Shown in pieces: positions 3,105-29,813 of a stretch of 39,918 nt of DNA. The notes under the pieces were generated by a model, which was given only the letters and a program-made list of their open reading frames with translations, was not told the DNA's origin and ran no database searches. The translations under genes and the position numbers were made by a program. Each line of letters starts with the position of its first letter. Positions within the stretch are counted from its first letter, which is position 1. This DNA is from a virus, in the UHGV virus genome UHGV-0076060, one strand, 5' to 3'.

Positions 3105-3402
3105 GTTTAGACCTCGTTATTTTGAAAATCTGAACGACGTTACCGCGCGTTTTAATAACCGCAGCAAGCATGACAGCGTTGATAATGACCTCAGATAAAT
3201 CCACAGCCATTGGCGTGCGTAACCAGATTGCATAGACGACACGAACTGGAATACTGGCTGCAGCAACAATCAGGAAATAAGCAAGCCATCCCCCCCATCT
3301 TCGGTGTTGTGAACCGTTACGCCGGAAAGTGACAACGCGAATTGCTATGCCAGTACAAATAACTGCATTGGTGATAAGCAAAAAAAACTCATGCGTTACC
3401 AT
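3094..3402 (-). CDS. holin/antiholin-like small membrane protein (102 aa)
   Basis: Three predicted TM helices, immediately upstream of endolysin with overlapping boundaries. Confidence 0.55.
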
Positions 3403-3805
3403 CGTCTTTTCTCCCCGGAATTAACTCGCGTGGATTATCGGAACGGTGATAGAGCCAGATGCCAATTCGTACTGCGACGATTGCTGACACAAATGCGCCA
3501 GCAGAGAAAACAATCCCTTTCTCGAAAGAGTCCTGCGTGATGGTAGGTATCAGGCTGGCTATGCCGATAAGAATTGATGCTGCTGGTTTGTAGAAAAGAA
3601 GTCCGCAGAGAAAACTAAGCATCGACAAGAGTACGCGACGACGAATTGGGTACTCTACCGCAGAGGTAACAAAAATTACCGCGCCAGCCAAAGCTCCCAA
3701 AGCAACCTCAGGAGGCACTCCTGCTATCACCGCCGCCAGAGAACTCATGCTAAGCCACTGATTTAATGTTTCACTGGTTAGTTGAGCTGACATATTTTCC
3801 ACCAT
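3389..3805 (-). CDS. holin-like multi-TM protein (138 aa)
   Basis: Several hydrophobic helices, charged C-terminus, first gene of lysis cassette; start may be the internal Met (MSAQLT). Confidence 0.55.
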   Translation of the reverse strand: MVENMSAQLTSETLNQWLSMSSLAAVIAGVPPEVALGALAGAVIFVTSAVEYPIRRRVLLSMLSFLCGLLFYKPAASILIGIASLIPTITQDSFEKGIVFSAGAFVSAIVAVRIGIWLYHRSDNPRELIPGRKDDGNA

Positions 3806-4333: not shown

Positions 4334-6649
4334 TCATAAAATAGATTTCGTCTTTGTAACAATAATATCTACAAAATCACCTGCAGATATAGCTGATGGT
4401 ACTGTATCTGCAAGAGTAATCTTTTCTGAAGAGATGTTTTGCACATCTAATAATTTATTTTCAACCCCATCCGTATATACCAATTTGACATCACTGAATG
4501 GAGGGTAATAAGTGACTGTTCCTTGGTATACATATATTTCACTGCCTGAAATTGATTTCACTACATACCTGCCCCTTACAAGATTAATTTTGAGTTCAGA
4601 TAAATCGGTTTTATAACAGGTAATTCCTGAACCAATGTTAGCCATACTAATATCAGTATCACTATAATAAGTAATTGCTTTTCCTTGTTTTAAGGTGAAG
4701 TTATCTTTGCTTTTCCTTGGCAAGGATGTGCTATTTTTGTAATATCTACCAGTTAAGCATAGCCATGAAAATGCAGTATTCGCTACATTACCACCAGAAT
4801 ACACAGCTAAACGAATTGCACTAACTGGAACCCCTTCATTATTAATCCTGATCTTAATGGAAGAAATGTTAGCAACAGTAGCATATCTATGGTTAGATGA
4901 ATCCCATTGCATAGAAGAAGTTATTGCTTCTGTTTGTGAAGTTATGACATTCCCATCTCCATCTAATGCATACAGGTAAATGCGAAACGATGCCGTATCT
5001 GCTGAGAATGTAAACATATCACCATTTCTTACTGGTACATCTCCAGATTCCCATAACAACCCAAAATTCCGCATAAAAGCAAACTTAGAAGAAACTAGGT
5101 GACGGATATTATATAAACCATCTACATCTGTTTGATATGCTAATACACCAACTTCTCCATTGTTGGCACTGGATATAAATGGGGTGTTAGCATTTAAAGA
5201 AAACAATGTTACTTCATCGGATATATTTTCCTGAACATGAAATACTGCATTCCCCTTGCCATTATCAGTTACCTCTACATAAGTGTAAGGTGATGGATTG
5301 TATGGTTCATTTGTATAGTAAGGAGAACTTAACCATGAAGCCTCAATTGAGTTATTCCACGTATATTCACCAAAGTTAATTATCAACTGTTGGTTAGTTG
5401 GGGATGATGGATATCGTTCAAAACGAAACCCGTAGAAGTAATTGTTATCACCTCTTTGAATATCAATTTTACCTGCCCCCTCCATAGTTCCACCATAAAA
5501 CTTATTGTGGTTATGATGATATGGATTATCAGCGAAAATGATATTATTCGTACGATTCAGATAAAAATAGTTTTCATTTATCCATCCGTTCTCAACTCCA
5601 AGAAAATGAATTGTATCGACCTTTTTCAGGTTAAAGGTTGAGTATGCTATTGAATAATCCGTCGATGCCACCGAAGCATTATAATTTGCATATAACTGTA
5701 AGTAGTCGCAACGCTCAATGTTTATATGCTGCCCTTTTGCCCCGATAATACGAATATCCGGTGTCGTTTCAGATGAAATACCAGAATTTCTGATAATCGT
5801 TCCGAAGTTTTGTCTTGGGTTGTTAGGGTTTGATGCATTCCCGCCAAGCAATACCCCTATTCCTGAGTGGGATATGGTAAAAACAGCATTGGTCATTTCG
5901 AGGCTGACATTACGAAGATTTAATGTCTCCGTAATAATAAAATTACCTTCCGCTCGTAATGTTCTGGATGATTCTCGTGCATATTCTGCAGCCAGGATCA
6001 ATGCAGATGTATCATCTGTTATACCATCGCCTTTTGCCCCAAAATCGCGAACACTAACGGTGTCTCTCATCTTATCCTGGAACGTTCGGTATACTGCTCC
6101 AGAACCATACTGAATAAACCAACCAAAACCACCAACAACCCCGGCGATTGCAGCATCGACATAATTACGCATTGAGCGATTATTTACAGCGTCCTGCTCA
6201 AGTGATGGATCTGCAAGGTTAGAAATTTTGTTTTGCTTTGCATCGTAATATTTTGCAAGCAAAGATGGTTTCATCAATGCACGTCTGAACCACCCAAAAC
6301 ATTGCTGGATCAGCATCGTCAGGTAGTCAAAAGCATCTTCATGCACTTCGGGGAAAAATTTTCCCTGATTGCGAAGATCTGTCTCCTGCACTACATCAAG
6401 CACACGATCTATCGTAATTCGCCAGCCAGCAGCAAGCGGAGACGGCAGAACCACTGAACCGCCACTATAAGTGCCCGCCCCAGTTACCGTATAACCGGTA
6501 TCCAGAACCAATTCTGTTACGTTCCCGTTCAGGTCAGACACCTGAACAACCAGGTCTGATTTTCTGAAAATTCGAAAAGTATACGGAAACGATGTCGTAA
6601 CGCCGTTACCTGTGTATTCGTTGTGGTCAACTTCGGTTGAGACCGTCAT
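4334..6649 (-). CDS. tailspike/tail fiber with T7-type N-terminal adaptor domain and beta-helix depolymerase-like body (771 aa)
   Basis: N-terminus (YTGNGVTTSFPYTF...DLVVQV) matches the phage T7 tail-fiber N-terminal pattern; DFGAKGDGITDDT resembles pectate-lyase/beta-helix motifs; C-terminal coding part (4334-5700) is markedly AT-rich. Confidence 0.8.
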   Translation of the reverse strand: MTVSTEVDHNEYTGNGVTTSFPYTFRIFRKSDLVVQVSDLNGNVTELVLDTGYTVTGAGTYSGGSVVLPSPLAAGWRITIDRVLDVVQETDLRNQGKFFPEVHEDAFDYLTMLIQQCFGWFRRALMKPSLLAKYYDAKQNKISNLADPSLEQDAVNNRSMRNYVDAAIAGVVGGFGWFIQYGSGAVYRTFQDKMRDTVSVRDFGAKGDGITDDTSALILAAEYARESSRTLRAEGNFIITETLNLRNVSLEMTNAVFTISHSGIGVLLGGNASNPNNPRQNFGTIIRNSGISSETTPDIRIIGAKGQHINIERCDYLQLYANYNASVASTDYSIAYSTFNLKKVDTIHFLGVENGWINENYFYLNRTNNIIFADNPYHHNHNKFYGGTMEGAGKIDIQRGDNNYFYGFRFERYPSSPTNQQLIINFGEYTWNNSIEASWLSSPYYTNEPYNPSPYTYVEVTDNGKGNAVFHVQENISDEVTLFSLNANTPFISSANNGEVGVLAYQTDVDGLYNIRHLVSSKFAFMRNFGLLWESGDVPVRNGDMFTFSADTASFRIYLYALDGDGNVITSQTEAITSSMQWDSSNHRYATVANISSIKIRINNEGVPVSAIRLAVYSGGNVANTAFSWLCLTGRYYKNSTSLPRKSKDNFTLKQGKAITYYSDTDISMANIGSGITCYKTDLSELKINLVRGRYVVKSISGSEIYVYQGTVTYYPPFSDVKLVYTDGVENKLLDVQNISSEKITLADTVPSAISAGDFVDIIVTKTKSIL

Positions 6650-7982: not shown

Positions 7983-8019
7983 ATTTACATCGCACTCATC
8001 TTGTGCCATAGTAATCGGG

Positions 8020-8096
8020 CACTGGCAAAATCCAGTGCCGGGATTGGCGTCCCGGATTACTAAAAGGCGCATTCACCGCGCAAGCGGTTTTTTTAT
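8020..8096 (+). ncRNA. candidate small RNA (about 75 nt) ending in an intrinsic terminator
   Basis: No plausible ORF; possible promoter (TTTACA...TAGTAAT) upstream; two internal hairpins (GGCACTGG/CCAGTGCC and CCGGGA/TCCCGG) and terminal hairpin ACCGC-gcaa-GCGGT plus T7 tract at 8075-8096. Confidence 0.3.
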
Positions 8097-8251
8097 GCGT
8101 ATAGCACGGCCACATTCGTATTATGGTGGGCTGTGTGGGGGCACCGAAAGGTGCGCCGGGTCCTTTTAGCCGGTTACGCCAACCCTGCACAGTTCACCAC
8201 CAACCGATTGGCGTCGGTAGTGGTGATTGACCAGACTAAAAGGTAACCACT

Positions 8252-26247: not shown

Positions 26248-26454
26248 TTACTGACCAAGCAGCGTTTTACCGCTGGTATTAGCGGTTGATGTGTCACCCT
26301 GAGAACCGGTAAGCAGCGTAGAACTACGACCAGCAGCAGCGCGACGGCGACGAGTTTCTTCGTCGCGGGCATCAACAACGGCGGCATCCTGCTCCTGTGG
26401 TGCTGCCTGAACTTCTGGTGTTGCAGGCACTGACGGTGAGCTACCCATGCACAT
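26248..26454 (-). CDS. small hypothetical protein (68 aa) upstream of portal
   Basis: RBS GGAG 9 nt before ATG; chosen over the overlapping 26235..26474 frame, which has an Arg/His/Cys/Leu-rich out-of-frame-like composition. Confidence 0.35.
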   Translation of the reverse strand: MCMGSSPSVPATPEVQAAPQEQDAAVVDARDEETRRRRAAAGRSSTLLTGSQGDTSTANTSGKTLLGQ

Positions 26455-26544
26455 ATCAATGACTCCGTACGCAATTAAATTATTACCAATTTAACCACAT
26501 ATGATTTATTTATCGTAGGCAGTTGACATTTAACGCATGAATTA

Positions 26545-26559
26545 TTACCTTTCAGGTAA
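26545..26559. promoter_or_regulatory. ATTACC-N5-GGTAA operator-like palindrome (copy 4), upstream of head genes
   Basis: TTACCtttcaGGTAA, identical 16-mer to copy 1; about 90 bp upstream of the 26454 start; TTGACA hexamer nearby. Confidence 0.5.
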
Positions 26560-26881
26560 GCAAATGGTTCATTCCGGTTATTAACCTGACTGGCTTGTCG
26601 TTAAATTGAACAGGTGGAGTGAGCTTTTATTTTGAGCAGTACGGCGTATGGCACATGCGCCGATAGCGGTCTGGATACGTTTAAGGGGCACCCTCCCTTG
26701 CTCGGGCAAACGAACCAGGTAGCCGGAATGTGCAAGTCGAGCGGTTTTATTCCGCGCACGGGGATTCACCATCCCGGCGATTCGGTGTGACGCCTCGGAA
26801 GAGACGAGGGTACAACGATGAGAGCATTTATGGAGCCGCGACAAAGTGTGGCGCCTTAACAGGCTAAGTGCTCTCAGCGTT

Positions 26882-26958
26882 GTGGCATTAGCTCAGTTGG
26901 ACAGAGCAACCGCCTTCTAAGCGGTTGGTCGCAGGTTCGAATCCTGCATGCCACGCCA
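26882..26958 (+). tRNA. tRNA-Arg (anticodon UCU, reads AGA)
   Basis: Manual cloverleaf: 7-bp acceptor GTGGCAT/ATGCCAC, D-stem GCTC/GAGC, anticodon stem ACCGC/GCGGT with loop CTTCTAA, T-arm GCAGG-TTCGAAT-CCTGC, discriminator G, encoded CCA. Confidence 0.85.
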
Positions 26959-27001
26959 GAATCACGCCTAAGGACCGTGATGCCAGAAGTTCCAGGTGCT
27001 T

Positions 27002-27044
27002 GGCGGTGATGGTTTCCCTTGAAGGACTATCACCGCCCTTTTTA
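27002..27044 (+). terminator. intrinsic terminator downstream of tRNA-Arg
   Basis: GGCGGTGAT...ATCACCGCC hairpin followed by CTTTTTA. Confidence 0.6.
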
Positions 27045-27121
27045 CAGCAGGACGCCATTGCGATGACTTCATGCTGTAAACCAGTACAGCCACGGAAGGC
27101 ATAACTCATTGCTTCCAGTTC

Positions 27122-27146
27122 GCCCGGTTCGCCGGGCATTTTTTTA
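27122..27146 (+). terminator. hairpin plus T-tract immediately upstream of moron RBS
   Basis: GCCCGG-ttcg-CCGGGC then ATTTTTTTA, followed by RBS AAGGTGAG. Confidence 0.5.
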
Positions 27147-27156
27147 AGGTGAGATC

Positions 27157-27576
27157 ATGAAGACAATTGATATGTTGGCTAAGTATCTAAATGAATGGCC
27201 ATTAAAATATTCTCGTATCGTTCAGGCTGAAGACTGCATTTTTTATGGCGTTTTTGCTGGTAATGAAATGCATTACGAAGTAATTCAGAGTGAGGGACTG
27301 GCCGGGTTAACTCTTAGCGAAGACCATGGTACTAGCGTTACGTTCCATGACTGGATAACAGCACAACGTTATGAAATGGAAAAAGGCGATGTGTTTGATA
27401 TTTCTCGATCTGTTTACGCTAAAGCAAAAAGTGATAATGATTACATGAGCGAACACTTATACAACATGAAGTTACAATGCCTGCATGCGGCGCTTATTCA
27501 GAATGGGCACTTCGATAAAACAAGTGCCATCAATATTGCGGAAGCCATCAACGCTGGATTTAATGCCATTAAGTAA
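27157..27576 (+). CDS. moron protein of unknown function (139 aa), AT-rich, antisense to the late operon
   Basis: Good RBS, low GC relative to neighbours, own terminators; no recognisable motifs. Confidence 0.6.
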   Translation: MKTIDMLAKYLNEWPLKYSRIVQAEDCIFYGVFAGNEMHYEVIQSEGLAGLTLSEDHGTSVTFHDWITAQRYEMEKGDVFDISRSVYAKAKSDNDYMSEHLYNMKLQCLHAALIQNGHFDKTSAINIAEAINAGFNAIK

Positions 27577-27580
27577 CACC

Positions 27581-27592
27581 GTGACATGTCAC
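27581..27592. repeat. 12-bp perfect palindrome GTGACATGTCAC (copy 2 of 3)
   Basis: Exact copy; 5 nt after the moron stop codon. Confidence 0.7.
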
Positions 27593-27624
27593 AAACAGCC
27601 AGCCGATGAGCTGGCTTTGTTTTA
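27591..27624. terminator. bidirectional terminator between moron and large terminase gene
   Basis: AGCCAGC-cgatga-GCTGGCT with extended ACAAACA/TTGTTTT arms. Confidence 0.6.
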
Positions 27625-27666
27625 TCCTCATCAGAGGATATCAACGACATTATCCCCACCAGCGGA

Positions 27667-29142: not shown

Positions 29143-29813
29143 TGATTACCATCCTGACGTTCTTTGAGTCGCTTCCTGGCTGCTGCTATGCGATCAGCAA
29201 TTGTCACATTCACATTAACATCCAGACGTTCTTTGAACGCGTTGACATCAACATGCTTACCAATCAGCTCAAGGTTCTTCACCTTGTCAGGCCATTTAAT
29301 TTTTTTGAGGATTGTCTCTATCGAATCCTCGTTCATGTTCATGATGGTCGATGACAGATCAAAGCCACTAAGCGTAGTGCGCCAGATTTTCGGCCACTCA
29401 CGGATTGGTTTAAGGCTCCCATCGTCGTTGAGGATGTCGATCACGTCCATCTGGTCGATCTCCACCAGGCGCATGAGAACGTAATCAGCACTGACGCGCA
29501 TTCGTTTGTTGCGCTCCTCCATCAACTCGGCAATCCGTTTTTGAATGCGTTCATCGCGCATCATGACGCTGGCTTTAACTGCCGCTGTATTTGGGGAGAA
29601 TCCTGCGTTAATCGCTGCCTGAGTCTGGTTTTCAGGCGTTTTGATGTATGACTGGCAATAAGCCTCCTGCATTGCTGTTAGTGGCTTAAATTGCGTTGAT
29701 TTGCGTTTATAGGTTTTAGGTTCAGCAGGCATCATAACCACCGTGGTAATAGTTACCGTTGTGGTAATAGTACCATGCAAAATAAAGCCGCCATAGTTGG
29801 CGGCAGTATCCAA
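29139..29813 (-). CDS. terminase small subunit (about 200-224 aa)
   Basis: Position upstream of large terminase, basic N-terminal region; the ORF's first in-frame codon is TTG, true start possibly the internal MMPAEP. Confidence 0.6.
   Translation of the reverse strand: MDTAANYGGFILHGTITTTVTITTVVMMPAEPKTYKRKSTQFKPLTAMQEAYCQSYIKTPENQTQAAINAGFSPNTAAVKASVMMRDERIQKRIAELMEERNKRMRVSADYVLMRLVEIDQMDVIDILNDDGSLKPIREWPKIWRTTLSGFDLSSTIMNMNEDSIETILKKIKWPDKVKNLELIGKHVDVNAFKERLDVNVNVTIADRIAAARKRLKERQDGNQ

What the first reader, a model, noticed from the sequence alone, without database searches (positions are those of the whole stretch)
26475..27630. tRNA-Arg(UCU) and an AT-rich moron inserted antisense between portal and terminase genes
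Between two minus-strand late genes lies a plus-strand unit with a tRNA-Arg reading the rare AGA codon, two terminators, and a 139-aa AT-rich ORF with its own RBS and a bidirectional terminator. Carrying a rare-codon tRNA beside a foreign-composition gene is a classic cargo configuration. The moron has no recognisable motifs.
Basis: seen in the sequence. Interest (0 to 1): 0.6.

Follow-up and report, generated by a model that had tools for sequence, protein, structure and literature searches.

The report
Unannotated structured RNA beside phage tRNA
The tRNA-Arg and the small AT-rich gene are real but ordinary; the surprise is the "spacer" in front of the tRNA, a ~170-base pseudoknotted RNA with a 19-base invariant stretch that no database names, although it sits in about a third of complete E. 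coli genomes and in phages such as P1, Stx2c phages and epsilon15-like phages.

Summary
They lie on the plus strand between the portal and terminase genes of an epsilon15/phiV10-like (Uetakevirus) E. coli prophage. The "tRNA plus moron cargo" reading is only partly right. The unit starts at a conserved TTGACA-17-TACCTT promoter overlapped by a palindrome (TTACC-N5-GGTAA) that occurs 10 times in the window against 0.09 expected. So it looks repressor-controlled, not like an autonomous moron. The ORF contains no AGA or AGG codon. The constant element is not the tRNA but the 172 nt before it (26641-26812). This is a conserved non-coding RNA with five covarying helices, one a pseudoknot, and an almost invariant 19-mer, followed by a long stem (26813-26882) that abuts the tRNA. 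It has no Rfam match. It occurs in 1836 of 5426 complete E. coli genomes, always unannotated, and in P1 (upstream of ban). In lambdoid phages it usually sits just downstream of the cI repressor gene. Relatives carry tRNA-like RNAs or small ORFs in place of the tRNA. Its function is unknown. My best guess is a cis-acting early-operon leader that controls elongation or termination.

The parts
26523..26551 (+). Sigma-70-type promoter: -35 TTGACA (26523-26528), 17-nt spacer, -10 TACCTT (26546-26551).
   Evidence: Read from the sequence. The same TTGACA-17 nt-TACCTT/TACCCT arrangement is present in Leclercia and E. coli relatives and in epsilon15. The tool's stricter consensus scan did not call it.
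26545..26559 (.). Palindromic operator TTACC-N5-GGTAA, overlapping the -10 hexamer and the transcription start.
   Evidence: The motif occurs 10 times in the window against 0.09 expected; 0 of 100 shuffles reach that count. The epsilon15 record annotates a 'repressor' binding site at the equivalent place.
26641..26812 (+). Core structured RNA. Hairpin A: 26642-26662. Stem B: 26671-26674 with 26715-26718. Invariant 19-mer GGUAGCCGGAAUGUGCAAG: 26718-26736. Variable hairpin C: about 26741-26755. Stem D: 26761-26765 with 26771-26775. Pseudoknot: CACC 26767-26770 with GGUG 26785-26788. Stem E: 26793-26797 with 26805-26809.
   Evidence: Covariance model R1 scores it 140.8 bits, E = 1e-40, and it is the only hit in the window. 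On 62 representatives, 96.3% of cells pair and 12 of 25 pairs change on both sides; 0 of 500 shuffles match this, and slid controls pair at 27-48%. The pseudoknot column pair reads CG 54 / AU 11 and is always paired. The 19-mer is exact in 221 of 234 copies that were found through a different motif. No Rfam match at E <= 10.
26813..26882 (+). Stem F: CAACG-A-UGAGAGCA (26813-26826) pairs with UGCUCUCA-G-CGUUG (26869-26882) and encloses a 42-nt variable insert. Its last base is the first base of the tRNA.
   Evidence: Of 120 unique F elements, 112 are closed 5'-to-3' in their minimum-energy fold. The closing helix has a median of 17 bp, there are 56 distinct strand pairs with compensatory changes, and total length is 44-255 nt. 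The window's own fold predicts the stem.
26882..26958 (+). tRNA-Arg, anticodon UCU, with the 3' CCA encoded.
   Evidence: ARAGORN; Rfam RF00005, 73.3 bits; annotated as tRNA-Arg in RefSeq E. coli genomes.
26961..26981 (+). Trailer hairpin AUCACG...CGUGAU, conserved after both tRNA and tRNA-like cargo.
   Evidence: It recurs as AAUCACGCCUNAGGACCGUGAU in many unrelated loci.
27002..27043 (+). Terminator T1: 14-bp stem followed by CUUUUU. The base of the stem, UUGGCGG/CCGCC, is conserved across the family.
   Evidence: -20.6 kcal/mol in the window.
27044..27077 (+). Conserved hairpin ACAGCA...UGCUGU between T1 and T2.
   Evidence: The same sequence follows T1 in loci from other genera. Conservation therefore continues past T1.
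27122..27145 (+). Terminator T2: GCCCGG-UUCG-CCGGGC followed by U7. It ends immediately before the ribosome-binding site of the ORF.
   Evidence: It is conserved in L277, L278 and epsilon15 and annotated as a terminator in epsilon15.
27157..27576 (+). 139-aa ORF of unknown function (RBS AAGGUGAG at 27146-27153). GC is 39% and it has no AGA or AGG codon. Its N-terminal ~90 aa are variable and its C-terminal ~45 aa form a conserved helical hairpin.
   Evidence: PHROG 4846, E = 5e-89. No Pfam or PADLOC hit. 103 homologues, all unnamed, all in Enterobacteriaceae. The C-terminal domain is shared with 123-aa proteins that differ in the N-terminal part. Homologues occupy the same slot. AF2 gives pLDDT 68 and no fold match.
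27597..27616 (.). Terminator T3, shared with the convergent terminase gene.
   Evidence: The phiV10 record annotates a rho-independent terminator at the equivalent site.

Best explanation
The region 26523-27616 is one early transcription unit of an epsilon15/phiV10-like prophage. Its order is: a sigma-70 promoter overlapped by a repressor operator; an ~80-nt variable leader; a 172-nt conserved pseudoknotted RNA (the 'core', a family with no match in Rfam 15 or in the searchable literature); a long processing-type stem F that abuts the tRNA; tRNA-Arg(UCU); terminators T1 and T2; an accessory ORF; and terminator T3.

Shown here: the anatomy, the RNA's conserved structure, its strand, its wide distribution and the modular exchange of what follows it.

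Inferred: the unit is silent in the lysogen and fires on derepression. The tRNA is cut out, most likely by RNase P at the F/tRNA junction, and adds AGA-decoding capacity for phage genes. The core acts in cis on its own transcript as a leader that governs elongation or termination. In other words, it would be an RNA-based, N-independent antitermination or attenuation device, analogous in role to HK022 put, the Bacillus EAR element or the rrn leader. That would let RNA polymerase cross the long untranslated, structured cargo and terminators T1/T2 to reach the downstream genes.
For: Anatomy.

Structure: 96.3% of cells pair, 12 pairs change on both sides, and the controls fail to match. The pseudoknot covaries. 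Many G-U pairs fix the plus strand as the folded strand. Length differences that are not multiples of three rule out coding.

Position: in 118 of 229 distinct loci the core lies 99-405 nt downstream of an HTH + S24 CI-type repressor gene on the same strand, behind its own TTGACA promoter. That is where PL and nutL/putL sit in lambdoid phages. In P1 it lies in the C1-controlled ban operon. In the window its promoter carries the dispersed operator palindrome.

Terminators: 216 of 226 loci have a terminator-like hairpin at a median of 403 nt from the core start. Conservation continues beyond T1. No further promoter was found before the downstream ORFs.

Need for antitermination: the first PL-side genes (yfdP/yfdQ/yfdR type) include no recognisable N protein. 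[quoted passage not shown]

Leader role: the core can be followed directly by ORFs (ban in P1; small ORFs in L176, L260, L274), so it behaves as a general 5' leader.

tRNA: AGA is used at 6.8 per 1000 codons in the prophage.
Against: No experiment or transcript data bear on any of this. In P1 the core is about 2.3 kb from Pban, not next to a promoter. Phage LLS has homologous F, tRNA-like and T1 modules and the same yfdP operon, but a different leader and no core. So reading through T1 does not strictly need the core, unless the LLS leader does the same job. The core shows no similarity to HK022 put. epsilon15 has lost most of the core yet keeps T2 and the ORF. The very high sequence conservation and the adjacency to tRNAs would equally suit a trans-acting stable RNA. 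The operator assignment rests on motif statistics and on another record's annotation, not on binding data.
Confidence: 0.38

Rival explanations
1. The core, with or without stem F and its cargo, is a stable trans-acting RNA that is processed out of the early transcript. It would bind a conserved host component such as RNA polymerase, the ribosome, an RNase or a tRNA-handling or defence enzyme. The tRNA-like cargoes might act as decoys for tRNA-targeting defence nucleases, or the RNA might assemble on its own like GOLLD and ROOL. T1 would then simply be the end of the RNA gene.
For: It has a complex fold with a pseudoknot and dozens of invariant nucleotides, which meets the Weinberg et al. criteria for 'sophisticated' RNAs (PMC5737381). 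It lies in prophages next to tRNAs, as GOLLD and ROOL do. The cargo is a tRNA, or a tRNA-like RNA with D and T arms or a 6-7-bp acceptor-like stem. A conserved strong terminator follows. Cores are about 80% identical among otherwise unrelated phages. LLS keeps the cargo modules without the core, which shows that the modules are separable.
Against: No partner is known. The invariant motifs show no better-than-shuffled complementarity to the rrnH operon. In P1 and several other loci the core directly precedes an ORF as a 5' UTR. Conservation runs past T1 into T2 and the ORF region.
Confidence: 0.3
2. The core is only a processing and stability leader. It would fold so that RNase P, RNase III or RNase E cut correctly at stem F and release the tRNA or tRNA-like cargo, and it would protect the 5' end of the early transcript. 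It would have no effect on RNA polymerase.
For: Stem F is a closing helix with a median of 17 bp that encloses a variable insert, much like the RNase III stems around rRNAs, and it ends exactly at tRNA position +1. Cargo without a tRNA still has an acceptor-like stem, GUGGUGA/UCACCAC.
Against: Ordinary tRNA leaders need nothing like a 170-nt pseudoknotted RNA with a 19-nt invariant strand. In P1 and some other loci the core precedes ORFs with no F stem or tRNA-like cargo.
Confidence: 0.12
3. The core is the aptamer of an undescribed riboswitch. It would sense a host metabolite or ion and so gate early phage transcription.
For: Its size, pseudoknot, invariant junction nucleotides and position in the 5' leader of an operon are typical of riboswitch aptamers. 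LLS has an attenuator-like terminator in the equivalent leader.
Against: No expression platform overlaps the 3' side of the core. What follows it varies: stem F, an ORF, or the ban ribosome-binding site 45 nt away. It matches no known class.
Confidence: 0.1
4. One reading: a horizontally acquired moron plus a rare-codon tRNA as cargo, with the remaining intergenic DNA being spacer.
For: The ORF has foreign composition and the gene in the slot varies among relatives. The prophage is AGA-rich.
Against: The 'spacer' is the most conserved part of the unit and is a structured RNA. The tRNA is optional. The ORF has no AGA/AGG codon and no promoter of its own. The promoter carries an operator.
Confidence: 0.03

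Closest known systems
HK022 put RNAs (putL/putR), cis-acting antiterminator RNAs
   Same: Both are non-coding RNAs placed just downstream of the repressor-controlled early promoter of a lambdoid phage that lacks N. Both are followed by terminators that must be passed to express early genes.
   Different: put is about 70 nt with two stem-loops. The core is about 170 nt with five helices and a pseudoknot. There is no sequence or model similarity. Only one copy occurs per phage, with no putR-like second copy. Its activity is untested.
GOLLD and ROOL large ornate RNAs
   Same: All are structured RNAs of unknown function found in prophages and often beside tRNA genes (PMC5737381).
   Different: GOLLD and ROOL are 580-800 nt, occur mostly in Firmicutes and metagenomes, and have their own Rfam models, none of which match here. 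The core is about 170 nt and was found almost only in Enterobacterales and their phages; the one exception is a record labelled as a Stenotrophomonas phage.
rrn operon leader (boxB-boxA-boxC) with RNase III processing stems and spacer tRNAs
   Same: Both are untranslated operons with a leader, long stems that enclose a product, and embedded tRNAs. The 3' strand of stem F often reads UGCUCUUU, which is the start of rrn boxA, UGCUCUUUAACAA.
   Different: The boxA-like string is base-paired. It varies with its partner strand and is absent from some F stems, for example GAGUCAUCAGC. Nus-factor binding is untested.
P1 C4 / P4 CI / isrK immunity RNAs (Rfam clan CL00128; isrK RF01394)
   Same: These are also phage regulatory RNAs cut out of longer transcripts. 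According to the literature as I recall it, RNase P does the cutting at tRNA-like features. They occur in the same phages as the core: the window (8019-8204), mEp460 and P1.
   Different: They are different loci, much smaller, and their models do not match the core.
Morons of lambdoid phages (Juhala/Hendrix definition)
   Same: Like a moron, the ORF is an extra, compositionally odd gene in a slot between conserved genes, followed by a terminator.
   Different: It has no promoter of its own. It sits behind two terminators in a unit with a repressor operator, so it is probably not expressed from the repressed prophage.

Membership tests
tRNA (Rfam RF00005) | Cloverleaf that scores above the family threshold, with a defined anticodon. 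| tested here: met
   73.3 bits against a gathering score of 29. ARAGORN calls tRNA-Arg with anticodon TCT at position 35.
tRNA (Rfam RF00005) | Arg identity elements (A20, C35) and a 3' CCA. | tested here: met
   Read from the sequence: the D loop is AGUUGGACA with A20, the anticodon is UCU, and the 3' end is ...AUGCCAC-G-CCA. The identity rules come from established knowledge of E. coli ArgRS.
tRNA (Rfam RF00005) | The mature RNA is made and charged. | not testable with these tools
   Needs a Northern blot and an acid-gel charging assay.
Moron | An extra gene between conserved neighbours that is replaced or absent in relatives. | tested here: met
   phiV10 and epsilon15 have a ~120-aa ORF in this slot, SPN1S a 64-aa ORF and BUCT711 a 263-aa ORF. 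Only 114 of 1096 matching E. coli genomes cover at least 80% of the whole query.
Moron | Base composition differs from the flanking DNA. | tested here: met
   GC is 0.39-0.42 against 0.53-0.57 on either side.
Moron | An autonomous unit with its own promoter and terminator. | tested here: not met
   A terminator is present (T3). No promoter lies between T1 and the ORF. T2 ends at the ribosome-binding site. The only promoter is 600 nt upstream and is shared with the RNA and the tRNA.
Moron | Expressed from the repressed prophage. | not testable with these tools
   The operator palindrome over the -10 hexamer argues against it, but this needs RNA-seq of the lysogen.
HK022 put RNA | About 70 nt, two stem-loops, and sequence relatedness to putL/putR. 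| tested here: not met
   Model R1 finds nothing in the HK022 cI-nun region. The put region read shows no likeness to the core. The core is 172 nt with five helices.
HK022 put RNA | Lies downstream of an early promoter and upstream of terminators, in a phage without N. | tested here: met
HK022 put RNA | Makes RNA polymerase terminator-resistant through the beta' zinc-binding domain. | not testable with these tools
   Needs in vitro transcription and rpoC mutants.
GOLLD / ROOL | Match to the family covariance model. | tested here: not met
   No Rfam hit other than tRNA at E <= 10 on 26400-27250, and none on six related loci.
rrn / lambda nut-type boxA | A single-stranded boxA (GCUCUUUA-like) that binds NusB-S10. 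| tested here: inconclusive
   UGCUCUUU or UGCUCUCA is common on the 3' strand of stem F, but it is base-paired and is not universal.
Known riboswitch and ribozyme classes (Rfam 15) | Match to any curated model. | tested here: not met

The most novel reading that the evidence does not exclude
The core, its stem-F modules and its tRNA or tRNA-like cargo may together form a previously unrecognised class of phage RNA machinery. It could be an RNA-only antitermination system unrelated to put, used by many temperate Enterobacterales phages including N-less lambdoids (the core also lies upstream of ban in P1). Or it could be a tRNA-mimic array that acts in trans on host tRNA-targeting defences or on RNA polymerase. 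Either way it has been hiding unannotated in about a third of sequenced E. coli genomes.
Probability: 0.3. Interest if true: 0.85.

Novelty: new variant of a known kind. Interest (0 to 1): 0.62.

Why it matters
If the core is a cis-acting antiterminator or attenuator, it would explain how a large group of lambdoid phages that lack N switch on their early-left operon. Phage geneticists raised this question explicitly in 2025 (PMC12315714). It would also add a structurally new RNA to the very short list of RNAs that reprogramme RNA polymerase (put, EAR). If it acts in trans instead, it is a new, abundant, complex phage RNA beside tRNAs in the best-studied bacterium and in phage P1, comparable in puzzle value to GOLLD and ROOL. 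Either way there is a practical gain. A covariance model would annotate thousands of currently blank intergenic regions in E. coli, Salmonella and Klebsiella prophages, Stx phages and P1-type phage-plasmids. It would also remove spurious ORF calls that overlap them, such as mEp460 gp37, mEp390_036 and phiV10p04. The tRNA and the 139-aa ORF by themselves are ordinary.

Tried and rejected
1. Coding potential of 26560-26880. Rejected: homologues differ by insertions and deletions that are not multiples of three, and substitutions are compensatory.
2. Any Rfam family, including group I introns, RNase P, tmRNA, Y RNA, HEARO, riboswitches, GOLLD and ROOL. None matches at E <= 10.
3. Literature search for the invariant sequences. 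No relevant paper. The Pas sRNA preprint and the Minerva preprint describe other elements.
4. Relatedness to HK022 put. None.
5. A boxA/NusB site on the 3' strand of stem F. Suggestive only; the string covaries with its partner strand and is sometimes absent.
6. Antisense pairing of the invariant motifs to 16S, 23S, 5S or spacer tRNAs. No better than shuffled queries.
7. Partners for the invariant 19-mer, sought by mutual information. Nothing beyond the defined helices, because the motif does not vary. RNAalifold's alternative pairing GCACAU:AUGUGC cannot be tested for the same reason.
8. A copy in E. coli K-12. CPS-53 keeps yfdP-yfdR but has no core.
9. Function of the 139-aa ORF. No Pfam or PADLOC hit. 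PHROGs places it only in PHROG 4846, a family of unknown function. The AF2 model is weak (pLDDT 68, pTM 0.37) and Foldseek against the PDB gives nothing with E < 2.
10. An N-like protein among the first PL-side genes. None recognised.
11. Folding as ssDNA, or an attC-like element. I considered this and set it aside because of the transcription-unit layout (promoter, tRNA, terminators); no test here separates RNA from ssDNA folding.
Full report
WHAT THE WINDOW IS. The query region is 98-99% identical to prophages in many E. coli chromosomes and 91-98% identical to Escherichia phages HEMP4, PAS61 and phiV10, to O157 typing phages 9 and 10, and to TL-2011b. More distant matches are Salmonella SPN1S and epsilon15 and Klebsiella BUCT711, all of the genus Uetakevirus. 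The minus-strand neighbours are the portal (Pfam Head-tail_con, E = 1.6e-187), a 68-aa gp3-like ORF, and the large and small terminase genes.

CHECKING THE OBSERVATION.
- tRNA-Arg(UCU) lies at 26882-26958. It is the only tRNA in the window and scores 73.3 bits with Rfam's tRNA model. It has A20, C35 and an encoded CCA.
- Terminator-like hairpins lie at 27002-27037 (T1), 27122-27137 (T2) and 27597-27616 (T3).
- The 139-aa ORF runs 27157-27576 and has an AAGGTGAG ribosome-binding site.
- GC is about 0.40 there, against about 0.54 in the flanks.
RefSeq already annotates the tRNA and the ORF as "hypothetical protein" in identical prophages.

THE tRNA AND THE ORF. Over 44 ORFs of the prophage, AGA is used 6.8 times and AGG 3.8 times per 1000 codons. 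From memory, that is roughly three times the E. coli K-12 averages, so a tRNA-Arg(UCU) is plausibly useful to the phage. The 139-aa ORF itself has no AGA or AGG codon, so the two are not functionally paired.

The ORF is a real gene. It matches PHROG 4846 (E = 5e-89) and has 103 homologues at 36-97% identity in E. coli, Salmonella, Citrobacter, Klebsiella, Leclercia and Cronobacter. None of them has a name or a Pfam domain. Its C-terminal ~45 residues (SDxDYxxEHLYNMKLQCLHAALIQ...AINAGFDAIK) are shared with 123-aa proteins that differ in the N-terminal part. These occupy the same slot and match the size of phiV10p03. Every homologue I looked up lies between gp3/portal and terminase. Structure prediction was weak (pLDDT 68, pTM 0.37). 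Only the C-terminal helical hairpin is confident, and Foldseek found nothing in the PDB. No defence-system profile matched. Its function stays unknown.

THE UNIT IS NOT AN AUTONOMOUS MORON. The ORF has no promoter of its own, and T2 ends at its ribosome-binding site. About 600 nt upstream lies TTGACA-17 nt-TACCTT (26523-26551). This arrangement is conserved in relatives from E. coli and Leclercia and in epsilon15. It is overlapped by the palindrome ATTACC-TTTCA-GGTAA(G). The motif TTACC-N5-GGTAA occurs 10 times in the window against 0.09 expected, and no shuffle out of 100 reaches that count. Other copies lie in front of the isrK/C4 immunity RNAs and other divergent promoter regions. The epsilon15 record marks a repressor binding site at the equivalent position. 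I therefore read it as one of the prophage's dispersed operators, and the whole plus-strand unit as repressor-controlled.

THE OVERLOOKED ELEMENT. The 431 nt before the tRNA match not only Uetakeviruses. The 3' 245 nt also match, at about 80% identity, otherwise unrelated phages: lambdoids (cdtI, mEp460, Ayreon, 2H10, PhiR55_1, twelve Stx2c-converting phages), P1, P7, D6, SJ46 and RCS47, Klebsiella phages, and a phage labelled as a Stenotrophomonas phage. Nearly every listed hit has no feature annotated there; the few exceptions are overlapping hypothetical-protein calls.

Alignments show insertions and deletions that are not multiples of three, and compensatory substitutions. Pattern scans of viral, genome and metagenome collections gave several hundred copies. 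From the first three scans I obtained 154 unique cores and 66 representatives below 95% identity.

On 62 representatives (alignment A3) I tested a structure of four helices and one pseudoknot. 96.3% of cells form standard pairs, and 12 of 25 pairs change on both sides (113 cells). None of 500 shuffles reaches these values, and sliding the partner columns drops pairing to 27-48%. Frequent G-U pairs show that the plus strand is the one that folds. The pseudoknot (loop-D CACC with downstream GGUG) switches to AACC:GGUU. In an independent alignment dominated by metagenome copies, that column pair reads CG 54 / AU 11 and is never unpaired.

Between the helices lie invariant strands: UGGCACAUG, AGCGGUC, GGCGAU-CGGUGUGAC and the 19-mer GGUAGCCGGAAUGUGCAAG. 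The 19-mer is exact in 221 of 234 copies that were collected through a different motif.

A covariance model of the core (R1) hits the window once, at 26641-26812 (140.8 bits, E = 1e-40). Rfam 15 has nothing there at E <= 10, nor on six related loci. A full-text search for the invariant strings found no relevant paper.

By BLAST the core is present in 1836 of 5426 complete E. coli genomes, with up to four copies per genome and 554 places on plasmids. Every listed hit is annotated "none". K-12 lacks it: CPS-53 keeps the downstream yfdP-yfdQ-yfdR genes but not the core. That may be why K-12 transcriptomics never flagged it.

WHAT FOLLOWS THE CORE IS MODULAR. After stem E comes stem F. In the window, 26813-26826 pairs with 26869-26882 and encloses 42 nt. 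Among 120 unique F elements, 112 close 5'-to-3' in their minimum-energy fold. The median closing helix is 17 bp, there are 56 distinct and mutually compensating strand pairs, and total length runs from 44 to 255 nt. The inserts often contain T-arm-like hairpins (GGUUCGAUUCC).

F ends exactly at tRNA position +1. About a fifth of the unique downstream sequences hold tRNA-Arg(UCU), and ARAGORN calls no other tRNA type there. The rest carry one of three things:
- a tRNA-like RNA with D and T arms that ARAGORN does not call;
- a conserved RNA closed by a 6-7-bp acceptor-like stem (GUGGUGA...CCGGAGAUCAGCACCGG(U/C)CACCAC);
- a small ORF.
Next come a conserved trailer hairpin, a conserved strong terminator (UUGGCGG...CCGCCCUUUUUAC) and, often, further hairpin-plus-F modules.

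Uetakevirus-type prophages L277 (Leclercia) and L278 (E. coli; L280 gives the same core hit and no tRNA) have the promoter, core, F, tRNA-like cargo, T1, T2 and the ORF, but no tRNA. So the tRNA is one optional cargo and the core is the constant.

epsilon15 has lost most of the core. Its hairpin A and half of stem B are fused to the 3' half of T1 at a 13-nt string (UUCCCUUGAUGCU), which is found in SPN1S in the stem-B loop of the core and again in the loop of T1.

CONTEXT. Of 229 distinct loci with enough upstream sequence, 118 have the core 99-405 nt downstream of an HTH + peptidase-S24 CI-type repressor gene on the same strand. At least 61 have it in the Uetakevirus portal/terminase gap. A few have it in P1-type phages between trnI and ban, inside the C1-controlled ban operon.

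In the repressor-adjacent loci I examined (mEp460, Stx2c, mEp390, BUCT708) the layout is: the terminator of cI, then a TTGACA-type promoter, then the core. That is the PL position. 216 of 226 loci have a terminator-like hairpin at a median of 403 nt from the core start. No further promoter was detected before the downstream ORFs. Those ORFs (yfdP, yfdQ/DUF2303 and yfdR types, among others) include no recognisable N protein.

MECHANISM: WHAT I COMMIT TO AND HOW FAR. Shown: a promoter with an operator motif; a conserved, strand-specific, pseudoknotted RNA; a processing-type stem that abuts exchangeable tRNA or tRNA-like cargo; and conserved terminators followed by genes that lack promoters.

Inferred: the core is a cis-acting leader of repressor-controlled early operons that governs elongation or termination. 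It would be functionally analogous to put, EAR or the rrn leader. It would allow transcription through long untranslated, structured cargo and through T1/T2. The tRNA would be released by RNase P and supplement AGA decoding. I put about 0.38 on this class of explanation.

Several results weaken it. LLS carries homologous F, cargo and T1 modules but a different leader and no core. In P1 the core is far from Pban. The core is unrelated to put. epsilon15 retains T2 and the ORF without an intact core.

The main rival (0.3) is a trans-acting stable RNA in the manner of GOLLD and ROOL, which share the prophage-and-tRNA context, possibly tied to tRNA biology or to anti-defence. Smaller rivals are a pure processing/stability leader (0.12) and a riboswitch (0.1). 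A boxA-like string on the 3' strand of stem F and pairing to rRNA were examined; the first was inconclusive and the second negative.

COMPARISON AND NOVELTY. The tRNA-Arg and the hypothetical ORF are already annotated and are ordinary. The variable slot is moron-like, but it fails the "own promoter" criterion. The core belongs to none of the families tested (put, GOLLD/ROOL, C4/isrK, and all Rfam riboswitches and ribozymes).

By the criteria of Weinberg et al. (a pseudoknot plus many >97%-conserved nucleotides), it is the kind of RNA that usually does something biochemically sophisticated, although it is confined to one bacterial order. I rate it a new structural variant of a known kind, namely phage cis-regulatory or structured leader RNAs. 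There is a real chance that it is something more unusual.

VERDICT. The interesting feature inside the given coordinates is the unannotated RNA at 26641-26882, not the tRNA-plus-moron pairing.

Noticed in passing
window 8019-8094 and 8119-8204 (+): Rfam finds isrK (77.9 bits) and C4 antisense RNA (77.7 bits) in tandem. This is a P1-type immI immunity module. It is preceded by two copies of the TTACC-N5-GGTAA palindrome (7875, 7968). mEp460, which also carries the core RNA, has the same isrK + C4 pair.
   Followed up: partly
window 6754, 7875, 7968, 26545, 29753, 33150, 33212, 35500, 36212, 36274: There are ten copies of the 15-bp palindrome TTACC-N5-GGTAA, against 0.09 expected by chance. It looks like a dispersed operator set, reminiscent of P1 C1 control of many scattered operons. 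The site at 29753 lies inside the small-terminase ORF.
   Followed up: partly
L154 (epsilon15) 1813-1882: epsilon15 retains only hairpin A and half of stem B of the core, fused to the 3' half of terminator T1 at a 13-nt string (UUCCCUUGAUGCU). In SPN1S that string occurs both in the stem-B loop and in the T1 loop. A YCCUUG-type motif recurs in stem-B loops and in many T1 loops, which may point to a shared partner.
   Followed up: partly
L403 (phage LLS) 5740-6290, minus strand: LLS has the same yfdP/yfdQ/yfdR early-left operon and homologous stem-F, tRNA-like and T1 modules. In place of the core it has a different leader that contains a terminator-like hairpin (CUGGCUG...CAGCCAGCUUUUU). It may be an alternative leader module with the same role.
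   Followed up: partly
L004 (mEp460) 2745-2870; L005 (Stx2c phage); L246, L207, L256: In place of the tRNA there are conserved tRNA-like RNAs. One type is closed by GUGGUGA/UCACCAC and ends in a CCGG-AGAUCAGCA-CCGG arm. Another keeps true D and T arms around a long insert. None is called by ARAGORN or Rfam.
   Followed up: partly
L001 (phiV10) 3154-3405; L004 (mEp460) 2443-2811; L128 (mEp390) 2511-2753: The annotated hypothetical proteins PhiV10p04, mEp460 gp37 and mEp390_036 overlap the tRNA or the core RNA. PhiV10p04 and mEp460 gp37 lie on the opposite strand; mEp390_036 is on the same strand. All three are probably spurious ORF calls.
   Followed up: no
window 27157-27576, and proteins P0094, P0098, P0100: The 139-aa ORF and the 123-aa proteins of related prophages (the size of phiV10p03) share only a ~45-aa C-terminal helical domain. 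Their N-terminal parts are unrelated, which suggests domain shuffling within the slot.
   Followed up: partly
window 4334-6649 (-): This 771-aa ORF has GC 0.39 and the highest AGA/AGG count in the prophage (14 codons). It is a likely horizontally exchanged gene, not identified here, and a plausible main client of the tRNA-Arg(UCU).
   Followed up: no
L003 (P1) 2411-2486 and 2501-2678: In P1 the core lies 15 nt after trnI (anticodon CAU) and about 95 nt before the ban start codon. It has no stem F. No feature is annotated there, even though the P1 record is otherwise very densely annotated.
   Followed up: partly
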